Part shown: positions 28,401-29,927 of the stretch, piece after piece
Numbering within the stretch: the stretch's first letter is position 1
Layout of the letters: each line of letters begins with the position of its first letter
From: Pocillopora damicornis
Taxonomy: Eukaryota
DNA: 64,000 nucleotides
Assembly (NCBI RefSeq): GCF_003704095.1
Contig: NW_020845131.1
Coordinates: 124,001 to 188,000 of the forward strand
Direction of reading: 5' to 3'
Made by a program: the position numbers

Positions 28401-29927
28401 AATCTTCACAGCTTCAAGGCTTTTTCAAACAATACTTCTTGATTTTGACTTGTAAAACACCCGTTTTCTGTTATTAAGTATACAAACTTAAGAGTTTTAT
28501 CCGTAATCAAGGGTGTTTACTGGTCAGAATTATTCAGGCGTGTTTGTTTTTCACTAGATTTTCACATCTAGCTCTCCTCTAAGGTTTTTTTTCTACACTT
28601 TAGGACAGGTTTCACATCGAAATAGGGAATATGCTAAGTAACTCTTAACACATTTGTTCTGATCCTATATCTACTCTGTACTTATCAAGAATCAATACTG
28701 TAAACAATTATGCTGTGTCATTTACTGATAAACATCAATGTTCATTAAAATCATTAGGCATAAAAAATGACCATCTTCTTTTTGGTACGGTGAATAATTG
28801 TTTCTTAAGCCAATTTTGGATACGATCTTAAGCAATTATAACAGTGCTTCACATCTAAAGAGGAATGACTGATAAGTCTACCTGAGCAGTTTACAATTTT
28901 TTTTATTTCCCTGTAATGGGACTTCACAGATGAGGTTAGACTTCCCCTCTTACAATCTCTCTTTATCTTTTTTTATAGTTCAGAATTATGAGTGACACCA
29001 AAGAGGAGCCCGAAAATCAAGAAGAGGAAGAGACCAGCACTTCTTCTACTCTTCATCACAGAGTTCCGAAATGTGCTCGCTGTCGCACGCATGGCACAGT
29101 TTCTTGGCTCAAGGGTCACAAACATTATTGCCGTTGGAGGGACTGCACTTGTGCAAAGTGCCAACTTATTACCGAGAGACAGCGAGTGACCGCCGCACGT
29201 GTTGCCTTACTGAGACAGCAGAGAAAAGGAGCTGAGTTGAGGGCAAAATATCAAAGAGAACTGGAAAACGCCCGGTTGACGTACTCCATGGTGTTTCAAA
29301 CCAACGGATTAGCTGGTAGGGCCAATTTCCATTTTCGTATTTCCCTTCCCTTTATTCGCAACTTTCATTCTCCTCTTACTTTATTTTAGCTGCTTTGCCC
29401 CGTGAAAATTTTTTCATCAACCTTTTTCAAATTGTCATGATGATATTTAATATGCTAAGCCTGAATTTGCCTCTAAAAACACTTTCAATCGATTTTCTAG
29501 GATTCCCAAGCAGCCATCGACACCATTTTTATCACCATGCACCTCAAGCAGAGATTGGTCATCTGGAACCAAGGATAACGGAAATTAGACCACAAGCTGG
29601 TAGGCCATAACAGTTTTCATTTGGATTGTCGTTATTTCTAGCTCTTTCATAAGGGATTTCCTTGGCAATTCCCTTCTCTAAACACCACTTTTTCCGAACT
29701 GACAACCAAAAAGCAGTGCTTTTTACAGTGTTTTCGTTGTTTGAGCTGTTNNNNNNNNNNNNNNNNNNNNNNNNNNNNNNNNNNNNNNNNNNNNNNNNNN
29801 NNNNNNNNNNNNNNNNNNNNNNNNNNNNNNNNNNNNNNNNNNNNNNNNNNGCACTTGTTAATTTTTTCAAAGACCACAAATTGCACTCGCCCTACGGGCT
29901 CGTGTCGGCAATTTTGTTAGTCTTTAA

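What the first reader, a model, noticed from the sequence alone, without database searches (positions are those of the whole stretch)
29060..29221. Dmrt with a rewired DNA-recognition helix
Seen: all zinc ligands are intact, but the near-invariant DM motifs RNHG and RQRVMAAQVALRR read RTHG and [13 protein letters not shown] (T34, T68, R71, L75). Known: this helix inserts into the major groove. As I recall the DMRT1-DNA structure, the equivalent M115, Q118 and R122 lie on the DNA-contacting face. Inference: three changes at i, i+3 and i+7 in an otherwise intact gene suggest a paralogue with altered sequence specificity or binding stoichiometry, or a heterodimer modulator of other Dmrt proteins. 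This is relevant to anthozoan sexual or neural development.
Basis: partly seen in the sequence, partly recalled or inferred. Interest (0 to 1): 0.7.

Follow-up and report, generated by a model that had tools for sequence, protein, structure and literature searches.

The report
Dmrt gene with variant DNA-binding helix
This is an intact Dmrt transcription-factor gene of the DM-plus-DMA class whose DNA-binding helix has lost a normally conserved backbone-gripping arginine but keeps all three base-reading residues, so it is a moderately unusual family member and probably not a rewired one.

Summary
Window 29060-29221 (+) encodes a DM domain (Pfam E=1.5e-21) with all eight zinc ligands. Against human DMRT1 it reads T for N81, T for M115, R for Q118 and L for R122. 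Two more changes were missed: H for R93 and T for A109.

"Rewired" is too strong. The three base-reading residues (R111, V119, R123 equivalents) are unchanged. R/K122 is a phosphate-backbone contact; it is lost, and a new arginine sits one helical turn earlier. The helix face turned away from the DNA is identical to DMRT1.

Published selection experiments show that more heavily substituted DM helices still choose ACA(A/T)TGT. Tuned affinity or stoichiometry on the canonical site is therefore the likeliest effect.

The gene looks intact, with three GT-AG exons. It carries a DMA domain and a C-terminal zinc ribbon, the architecture published for Nematostella NvDmrtF.

Whether the changes are conserved stays open. 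I rate it a new member of a known kind, of modest interest.

The parts
28988..29315 (+). Exon 1: ATG to GT donor (GT at 29316-29317, phase 1). Encodes an acidic N-terminus, the DM domain and the following helix.
   Evidence: The open frame runs 28979-29389 with an in-frame stop just upstream. The donor reads ggattagctg[GT]agggccaa. An acceptor-like AG at 28977-28978 means an upstream exon cannot be excluded.
29060..29221 (+). DM DNA-binding domain as delimited in the finding (residues 25-78): zinc module plus recognition helix.
   Evidence: Pfam PF00751 E=1.5e-21, residues 25-70. 4yj0_A E=1.8e-23.
29072..29161 (+). Intertwined CCHC + HCCC zinc module, with all eight ligands present.
   Evidence: Single regex hit in six frames. 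Ligands align with DMRT1 C76, C79, H82, H91, C95, C100, C102 and C105.
29087..29089 (+). T34 (ACG), where DMRT1 and DSX have N (N81, in RNHG).
29123..29125 (+). H46 (CAT), where DMRT1 and DSX have R (R93, in KGHKR). The preceding K45 (K92 equivalent, DSX K60) is kept.
   Evidence: The DSX K60 salt bridge is described in PMC1931443.
29153..29215 (+). Recognition helix (residues 56-76 in the model, equivalent to DMRT1 103-123).
   Evidence: AlphaFold2 single-sequence model: helix H56-76, block pLDDT 80-96.
29171..29173 (+). T62 (ACC), where DMRT1 and DSX have A (A109).
29177..29179 (+). R64, equivalent to DMRT1 R111. Base-contacting arginine, retained.
29189..29191 (+). T68 (ACC), where DMRT1 and DSX have M (M115).
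29198..29200 (+). R71 (CGT), where DMRT1 has Q (Q118). A new arginine one helical turn before the lost one.
29201..29203 (+). V72, equivalent to DMRT1 V119. Base-contacting position 16 of the helix, retained.
29210..29212 (+). L75 (CTG), where DMRT1 has R (R/K122, a phosphate-backbone contact).
29213..29215 (+). R76, equivalent to DMRT1 R123. Base-contacting arginine, retained.
29501..29599 (+). Putative exon 2: 99 nt, phase 1 in and phase 1 out, His-rich, no family match. It can be skipped in frame.
   Evidence: AG at 29499-29500 and GT at 29600-29601. No Pfam hit for the overlapping stretch 29500-29598 as translated. Inferred from frame and splice signals only.
29751..29850 (.). Run of 100 N inside intron 2. 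Left as it is.
30085..30875 (+). Exon 3: acceptor AG at 30083-30084, through to stop TAA at 30873-30875. Mostly predicted disordered, with the DMA domain and the zinc ribbon.
   Evidence: A 295-codon open frame, with about 5e-6 expected by chance in the window. Acceptor reads ttttgtcttc[AG]gtacagaa. Model.
30378..30482 (+). DMA domain.
   Evidence: Pfam PF03474 E=9e-12, 44.8 bits against a cut-off of 23. Helices with pLDDT about 72.
30516..30536 (+). MSALAGC: a possible derived 'short conserved motif' (SAF core) downstream of the DMA domain.
   Evidence: Read. The motif is described in PMC6604209. Tentative.
30786..30851 (+). C-terminal zinc ribbon, CxxC-x11-CxxC.
   Evidence: Pfam PF13240 at 27.9 bits against a cut-off of 25; PF13248 Zn_ribbon_3 at 22.2 bits, below its cut-off of 27. 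pLDDT 77-88.

Best explanation
The locus is an intact, compact three-exon gene for a DMRTA-class transcription factor. It has an N-terminal DM domain, a DMA domain and a C-terminal zinc ribbon, which is the architecture published for Nematostella NvDmrtF.

I expect the DM domain to bind DNA in the ordinary DM manner. The zinc module sits against the backbone and minor groove, and the helix lies in the major groove. Three unchanged residues (R64, V72 and R76, equivalent to DMRT1 R111, V119 and R123) read an ACA(A/T)TGT-like core.

What differs is the non-specific grip. The phosphate-contacting R/K122 is replaced by Leu. A new Arg appears four residues (one turn) earlier, at the Q118 position. 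M115, N81, R93 and A109 are also replaced.

My inference is that the backbone contact has been moved or weakened. That would tune affinity, flanking-base preference or the dimer/trimer/tetramer stoichiometry on canonical sites, without creating a new core specificity.

Shown: sequence, domains, residue equivalences, gene structure. Inferred: DNA binding, the arginine relocation, and any effect on affinity or stoichiometry.
For: - DM domain E=1.5e-21, DMA E=9e-12, and zinc ribbon above its cut-off.
- A 62-column ungapped alignment to DMRT1, with all zinc ligands and R111, V119, R123 and K92 equivalents retained.
- The base contacts are helix positions 8, 16 and 20: two conserved Arg, plus a Thr that is Val or Met in some species. 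R123 is base-specific and R/K122 contacts the phosphate backbone. R123A nearly abolishes reporter activation.
- On the helical wheel, the residues within about 50 degrees of the point opposite the base contacts (110, 113, 114, 117, 121, 124) are identical to DMRT1. That face forms the hydrophobic zipper between two DM domains.
- All seven Dsx DM domains tested by SELEX selected ACAyTGT, including those from honeybee and cricket, lineages whose helices are about half substituted.
- Six of seven mouse DMRTs selected DSX-like sites despite helix differences.
- Canonical GT-AG splice sites with matching phases, and a 295-codon open exon 3.
- NvDmrtF is described as DM + DMA + zf-ribbon-3.
Against: - No DNA-binding data exist for this protein, and no orthologue could be compared, so constraint on the variant residues is unknown.
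- Position 122 is described as extremely conserved. Losing it could cost more than 'tuning'.
- Mouse DMRT6 differs at 6 of 14 helix positions and lacks the K60-equivalent lysine. It selected no site, so divergent DM domains can fail to bind.
- The roles of M115, Q118, N81 and R93 could not be read from any held source.
- The helical wheel is an idealisation, not the crystal geometry.
- The arginine-relocation idea is pure inference.
- The spliced model is unsupported by RNA data, and the 100-N run lies in intron 2.
Confidence: 0.55

Rival explanations
1. One reading: the changes at 115, 118 and 122 (with N81T) give the paralogue a different DNA sequence specificity from other Dmrt proteins.
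For: The three changes lie on or beside the DNA-facing side of the helix, at 30, 90 and 50 degrees from the base-contact direction. Mouse DMRT1-5 are identical across 14 helix positions, so three changes are unusual. A new Arg at 118 could in principle reach a base. Mouse DMRT proteins do show distinct nucleotide preferences around a shared core.
Against: All three residues reported to make base contacts are unchanged. The one substituted residue with a documented role (122) is a backbone contact. Far more heavily substituted Dsx helices kept the ACAyTGT core in SELEX.
Confidence: 0.15
2. The DM domain binds DNA weakly or not at all on its own. It acts mainly as a partner or modulator that co-occupies sites with other Dmrt paralogues, through the conserved helix-helix face.
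For: A conserved phosphate contact is lost (R/K122 to L) and R93 is replaced by H. The helix face away from the DNA, which zips two DM helices together, is identical to DMRT1. DMRT proteins heterodimerise on DNA, and DmrtA proteins co-purify. R111G shows that one helix change can alter stoichiometry dominantly. Mouse DMRT6 is a precedent for a non-binder.
Against: Unlike DMRT6, this protein keeps the K60-equivalent lysine and the R123-equivalent arginine. Net helix charge is preserved by Q118R. No other Dmrt gene lies in the window to pair with: 1 DM module in six frames. No interaction test was run.
Confidence: 0.15
3. The substitutions are lineage-private drift under relaxed constraint in a redundant paralogue of an expanded family, or, much less likely, assembly errors. 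On this reading they have no adaptive meaning.
For: Cnidarian Dmrt families are large (11 genes in Nematostella), which permits relaxed constraint. No orthologue could be examined, and no expression evidence is available.
Against: All three exons are open with canonical splice signals, and three separate domains still score significantly. Zinc ligands and base-contact residues are intact. The variant codons need at least 9 nucleotide changes in 162 nt with no indel, which is not the pattern of sequencing error.
Confidence: 0.13

Closest known systems
Nematostella vectensis NvDmrtF (Traylor-Knowles et al. 2015, PMC4433094)
   Same: The same three-domain architecture. [quoted passage not shown] The window gene has DM, DMA and a C-terminal zinc ribbon.
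   Different: Orthology was not tested. No NvDmrtF sequence was available, because the paper's gene models are in a supplement, which is closed. The paper says nothing about the recognition helix. Here Zn_ribbon_3 itself scores below its cut-off (22.2 against 27), while Zn_Ribbon_1 passes.
DMRTA subfamily (vertebrate DMRT3, DMRTA1/DMRT4, DMRTA2/DMRT5; fly Dmrt93B/99B)
   Same: A DM domain followed by a DMA domain. A possible derived short conserved motif follows the DMA domain.
   Different: Mouse DMRT1-5 are identical across 14 recognition-helix positions, whereas this protein differs at 115, 118 and 122. The DMRTA2 arginine equivalent to 122 is 'extremely conserved' and is Leu here. No zinc ribbon is described for the bilaterian members in the passages I read.
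Human DMRT1 DM domain bound to DNA (PDB 4YJ0)
   Same: 41 of 62 aligned residues are identical, with no gaps. All zinc ligands and the R111, V119, R123 and K92 equivalents are the same.
   Different: N81T, R93H, A109T, M115T, Q118R and R122L, plus changes at variable positions. DMRT1 has no DMA domain.
Honeybee and cricket Doublesex with heavily substituted recognition helices (preprint 10.1101/2024.09.25.614005)
   Same: Natural DM domains whose helix departs from the family consensus while the two base-contacting arginines are kept.
   Different: In those proteins the substitutions cluster on the face away from the DNA, the hydrophobic zipper. Here that face is unchanged and the substitutions are on the DNA-proximal side.
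Mouse DMRT6 (DMRTB1)
   Same: A DM protein with a divergent recognition helix.
   Different: DMRT6 differs at 6 of 14 helix positions, has Thr at the R123-equivalent (DSX R91) and Ala at the K60-equivalent, and selected no site. The window protein keeps both of those residues.
Acropora millepora AmDM1
   Same: A cnidarian Dmrt with a DMA domain and two splice variants. The window gene has an in-frame skippable exon 2.
   Different: AmDM1 is said to be closest to NvDmrtA, not NvDmrtF. No sequence was compared.

Membership tests
DM-domain (Dmrt) family, Pfam PF00751 | Profile match above the curated cut-off | tested here: met
   76.5 bits against a cut-off of 27, E=1.5e-21, profile positions 1-46 of 47.
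DM-domain (Dmrt) family, Pfam PF00751 | Eight zinc ligands in the intertwined CCHC + HCCC arrangement | tested here: met
   All eight align with DMRT1 C76, C79, H82, H91, C95, C100, C102 and C105.
DM-domain (Dmrt) family, Pfam PF00751 | Base-contacting residues of the recognition helix (R111, V/T119, R123 equivalents) | tested here: met
   R64, V72 and R76.
DM-domain (Dmrt) family, Pfam PF00751 | Basic residue (R/K) at the 122 position contacting the phosphate backbone | tested here: not met
   L75. The role and conservation of R/K122 come from PMC12186615. This is a conserved feature, not one I know to be formally defining.
DM-domain (Dmrt) family, Pfam PF00751 | Lysine equivalent to DSX K60 (backbone salt bridge) | tested here: met
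   K45 in LKGHK. Role from PMC1931443.
DM-domain (Dmrt) family, Pfam PF00751 | Sequence-specific binding to ACA(A/T)TGT-type sites | not testable with these tools
   Needs EMSA, SELEX or PBM.
DM-domain (Dmrt) family, Pfam PF00751 | DM fold by structure comparison | tested here: inconclusive
   In the single-sequence AlphaFold2 model the helix is confident but the zinc module scores only pLDDT 61-69. Foldseek against the PDB gave 0 matches at E<=0.001, only generic helical hairpins.
DMRTA subfamily | [quoted passage not shown] | tested here: met
   PF03474 E=9e-12 in exon 3. It is joined to exon 1 only by inferred splicing.
DMRTA subfamily | Short conserved motif with SAF core after the DMA domain | tested here: inconclusive
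   MSALAGC at 30516-30536 has SAL rather than SAF.
NvDmrtF-type cnidarian Dmrt | DM + DMA + C-terminal zinc ribbon architecture | tested here: met
NvDmrtF-type cnidarian Dmrt | Orthology by sequence or phylogeny, and cnidarian origin of the window | not testable with these tools
   The protein databases were closed, and the genome-contig scans found no relative. The only lead is an ESM Atlas cluster (DM 100%, DMA 91%, commonest Cnidaria) at score 0.81.

The most novel reading that the evidence does not exclude
In a cnidarian DmrtF-type clade, the backbone-clamping R/K122, otherwise conserved from humans to nematodes, has been deliberately moved one helical turn (Q118R with R122L), together with M115T, N81T and R93H. 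This set would be conserved across the clade. It would shift the register of the helix on DNA and so change the preferred flanking bases, half-site spacing or oligomeric state (for example dimer-only instead of tetramer). That would make a natural specificity or stoichiometry variant in a family whose helix is otherwise almost frozen, and would give an expanded cnidarian Dmrt family non-overlapping target sets.
Probability: 0.13. Interest if true: 0.5.

Novelty: new member of a known kind. Interest (0 to 1): 0.27.

Why it matters
DM-domain proteins are the one regulator class used again and again in animal sexual development. Their recognition helix is among the most conserved parts of the family, and how the many paralogues in one genome reach different targets is unresolved.

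A paralogue that keeps the base-reading residues but has moved or lost a conserved backbone contact is a cheap natural experiment. It could show what that contact contributes to affinity and to the dimer/trimer/tetramer choice that matters for DMRT1 function.

If the changes prove private to one species, the finding is just ordinary divergence in an expanded gene family.

Tried and rejected
**Relatives elsewhere**
- The search for related loci on genome contigs with exon 1: 253 pattern matches, 0 confirmed by tblastn.
- The same scan with exon 3: 201 pattern matches, 0 confirmed. That collection holds bacteria and archaea only, so this says nothing about animals.
No orthologue or paralogue alignment, phylogeny or dN/dS could be made.

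**Structure**
- The single-sequence AlphaFold2 model of exon 1 (mean pLDDT 76.8) gave a confident helix but a weak zinc module.
- Foldseek against the PDB returned 460 matches at E<=10 but 0 at E<=0.001. 4YJ0 does not appear among the matches shown, which were generic helical hairpins, so the search is uninformative.
- The exon 3 model had mean pLDDT 48.3, too low for a fold search.
- phmmer of exon 3 against the PDB: 0 hits at E<=1.

**ESM Atlas**
- Exon 1 gave only DM clusters, with no sequences returned.
- Exon 3 gave one lead at 0.81.

**Literature**
- A search for four short peptide strings of the variant motifs found 0 papers.
- 'DmrtF'-type terms matched only 'Dmrt family' and unrelated words.
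- The coral and anemone Dmrt search gave nothing on the helix.
- M115/Q118/R122 terms gave nothing relevant.
- Not held: Murphy 2015, Zarkower and Murphy 2022, Zhang 2006 and Zhu 2000. Residue roles therefore come from secondary passages.

**Window survey**
- 0 tRNAs, 0 Rfam matches at gathering score, and 3 unremarkable tandem-repeat rows.

**Not run**
- Complex prediction, because I claim no specific protein-protein binding.
- The joined (spliced) protein was neither assembled nor searched. Every search was exon by exon.
- The N run at 29751-29850 was left unfilled.

**Considered and rejected**
- Pseudogene: all frames are open and the domains score.
- Sequencing error: the codon argument.
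- A second Dmrt gene in the window: 1 DM module only.
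Full report
**What is there**

Window 29060-29221 (+) lies in an open frame that starts with ATG at 28988. It translates to a DM domain. Pfam PF00751 matches residues 25-70 at E=1.5e-21, 76.5 bits against a cut-off of 27. A search of the PDB sequences found 2 of 177,635 distinct sequences at E<=0.01: human DMRT1 (4yj0_A, E=1.8e-23, 62 ungapped columns) and fly Doublesex (1lpv_A, E=9.6e-15).

A zinc-ligand regex found one DM module in all six frames of the window, at 29072-29161. 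The eight ligands align with DMRT1 C76, C79, H82, H91, C95, C100, C102 and C105, as listed in a figure legend of preprint 10.1101/2024.06.12.598746 (passage). The offset is therefore window residue + 47.

So are the numbering and the i, i+3, i+7 spacing.

I add two that were missed, at positions where DMRT1 and DSX agree: H46 for R93 (KGHKR becomes KGHKH) and T62 for A109. The six variant codons need at least 9 nucleotide changes from any codon of the usual residue, within 162 nt, with no indel. That argues against sequencing error.

**The gene**

| Part | Coordinates | Notes |
|---|---|---|
| Exon 1 | 28988-29315 | ends at a GT donor, phase 1 |
| Exon 2 (putative) | 29501-29599 | 99 nt, AG/GT, phase 1 in and out |
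| Exon 3 | 30085-30875 | begins after ttttgtcttcAG, runs to TAA |

The phases fit, giving 405 codons, or 372 if exon 2 is skipped.

Exon 3 lies in a 295-codon open frame. About 5e-6 such frames are expected by chance at this base composition. It carries a DMA domain (PF03474, E=9e-12) and a C-terminal CxxC-x11-CxxC zinc ribbon. For the ribbon, PF13240 scores 27.9 bits against a cut-off of 25, and PF13248 Zn_ribbon_3 scores 22.2 bits, below its cut-off of 27. The single-sequence model of exon 3 is mostly low-confidence, apart from the DMA helices (pLDDT about 72) and the ribbon (77-88).

Three caveats apply:
- The splicing is inferred from frames and signals only.
- A run of 100 N (29751-29850) lies in intron 2 and was left alone.
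- An acceptor-like AG just before the ATG means an upstream exon cannot be excluded.

I searched the model exon by exon. The joined protein was neither assembled nor searched.

**What the substituted residues do**

Murphy et al. 2015, the DMRT1-DNA structure paper, is not held, so I rely on passages in papers that cite it.

- Preprint 10.1101/2024.09.25.614005 (passages) states that three helix residues contact bases directly, at helix positions 8, 16 and 20. [quoted passage not shown] Position 16 is Thr in insect Dsx, and Met or Val in some species.
- PMC12186615 (passages) states that DMRT1 R123 makes base-specific contacts and that R/K122 makes DNA phosphate-backbone contacts. [quoted passage not shown]
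- PMC1931443 (passages) shows that R123A nearly abolishes reporter activation.

The 12-residue spacing fixes position 8 as R111, position 16 as V119 and position 20 as R123. All three are unchanged in the window protein (R64, V72, R76), and so is the lysine equivalent to DSX K60.

I could not read any source on the roles of M115, Q118, N81 or R93.

**Geometry**

I placed the helix on an ideal wheel at 100 degrees per residue.

- Residues 115, 122 and 118 lie 30, 50 and 90 degrees from the mean direction of the three base-contacting residues.
- The opposite side (110, 113, 114, 117, 121, 124) is identical to DMRT1. According to the cricket preprint, that side forms a hydrophobic zipper between two DM domains.
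- Two antiparallel helices co-insert into the major groove, and DMRT1 binds as a dimer, trimer or tetramer.

The loss of Arg at 122 and the gain of Arg at 118 are four residues, one turn, apart on the same flank. I read this as a possible relocation of the backbone contact. That is inference only.

**What experiments on other DM domains predict**

- All seven insect and crustacean Dsx DM domains tested by SELEX selected ACAyTGT. They included those from honeybee and cricket, whose lineages have about half of the helix substituted. The author concludes that natural helix substitutions hardly alter specificity.
- Mouse DMRT1, 2, 3, 4, 5 and 7 all selected DSX-like sites. They differed in efficiency, nucleotide preferences and monomer/dimer behaviour, and some heterodimerise on DNA.
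- Mouse DMRT6 selected nothing. It differs at 6 of 14 helix positions, has Thr at the R123 equivalent and lacks the K60-equivalent lysine.

The window protein is more divergent than mouse DMRT1-5, which are identical over 14 helix positions, but it keeps what DMRT6 lacks. Canonical core recognition with altered affinity, flank preference or stoichiometry is therefore the best-supported expectation (confidence 0.55). New core specificity (0.15), a weak-binding heteromeric modulator (0.15) and drift or error (0.13) are the rivals.

**Comparison with the known**

The DM + DMA + zinc-ribbon architecture is already in print for one gene. Traylor-Knowles et al. [quoted passage not shown] A search for Dmrt together with zinc-ribbon terms returned only that paper, 1 of 1.

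Orthology to NvDmrtF is not tested.

The cnidarian origin of the window rests on that architecture and on one ESM Atlas lead for exon 3. That cluster has 139 members (DM 100%, DMA 91%) with commonest phylum Cnidaria, at score 0.81, which the tool calls a lead only.

A motif MSALAGC follows the DMA domain. It may be a derived form of the SAF-core short conserved motif described in PMC6604209 (passages; sequence).

**What stayed unchecked**

- No animal sequence database was open, and two scans of bacterial and archaeal genomes found no relative. I also could not measure how rare each substitution is across DM domains.
- The fold search was uninformative.
- A full-text search for four short strings of the variant motifs found 0 papers. 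This shows only that the strings are not printed in the searched main texts.

**Surroundings**

| Coordinates | Strand | Feature |
|---|---|---|
| about 35720-35810 | + | ankyrin-repeat exon |
| 41006-41644 | - | single-ORF p24/GOLD protein, E=1.8e-39 |
| 47018-47833 | - | SIX-class homeobox gene (SD domain E=1.8e-43, plus homeodomain) |
| 44380-44766 | - | probable further SIX exon |

The 28 kb upstream of the Dmrt gene shows no convincing coding ORF. None of its ORFs reaches 135 codons, and the 3 of them that I scanned had no Pfam match. There are no tRNAs and no Rfam matches. The window is 36.3% G+C.

**Verdict**

This is a real and somewhat unusual DM helix, but the base-reading residues are intact and the notable change is the loss, or shift, of a conserved backbone contact. 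It is a new member of a known kind (an NvDmrtF-like DMRTA-class gene) and of modest interest until the orthologue comparison and a binding assay are done.

Noticed in passing
   Followed up: partly
window 30786-30851: A C-terminal CxxC-x11-CxxC zinc ribbon lies in the same open frame as the DMA domain. A DM + DMA + zinc-ribbon architecture is reported in print only for NvDmrtF, among the papers my search found. Its function is unknown.
   Followed up: partly
window 30516-30536: MSALAGC, 11 residues after the DMA domain, may be a derived form of the SAF-core 'short conserved motif' of DMA-containing Dmrt genes.
   Followed up: no
window 29501-29599: Putative exon 2 is 99 nt with phase 1 at both ends, so it can be skipped in frame. 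The model without it has 372 residues, the same length as the representative of the best ESM Atlas cluster. This may be coincidence. AmDM1 of Acropora is reported to have two splice variants.
   Followed up: no
window 28950-28990: A pyrimidine-rich tract ending in AG at 28977-28978 sits 10 nt before the ATG. It looks like a splice acceptor, so an upstream exon (5'UTR or coding) may exist.
   Followed up: no
window 29751-29850: A run of 100 N inside intron 2 of the Dmrt gene. Left unfilled, so a small exon hidden there cannot be excluded.
   Followed up: no
window 47018-47833 (-) and 44380-44766 (-): A SIX-class homeobox gene (SIX1_SD E=1.8e-43, homeodomain E=3.3e-13) lies about 16 kb downstream of the Dmrt gene on the opposite strand. 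A 128-codon ORF without a family match is probably its C-terminal exon.
   Followed up: partly
window 41006-41644 (-): A p24/emp24 GOLD-domain cargo-receptor gene in a single 212-codon ORF (E=1.8e-39), apparently intronless.
   Followed up: partly
window 35622-35861 (+): An isolated ankyrin-repeat exon (PF00023 E=5.6e-09). The rest of that gene was not delineated.
   Followed up: no
window 1-28000: No convincing coding ORF in the 28 kb upstream of the Dmrt gene: none reaches 135 codons, and the 3 ORFs I scanned there had no Pfam match. It resembles the gene-poor flank often seen beside developmental regulators. A perfect 23-nt x 3 tandem repeat lies at 4102-4170.
   Followed up: no
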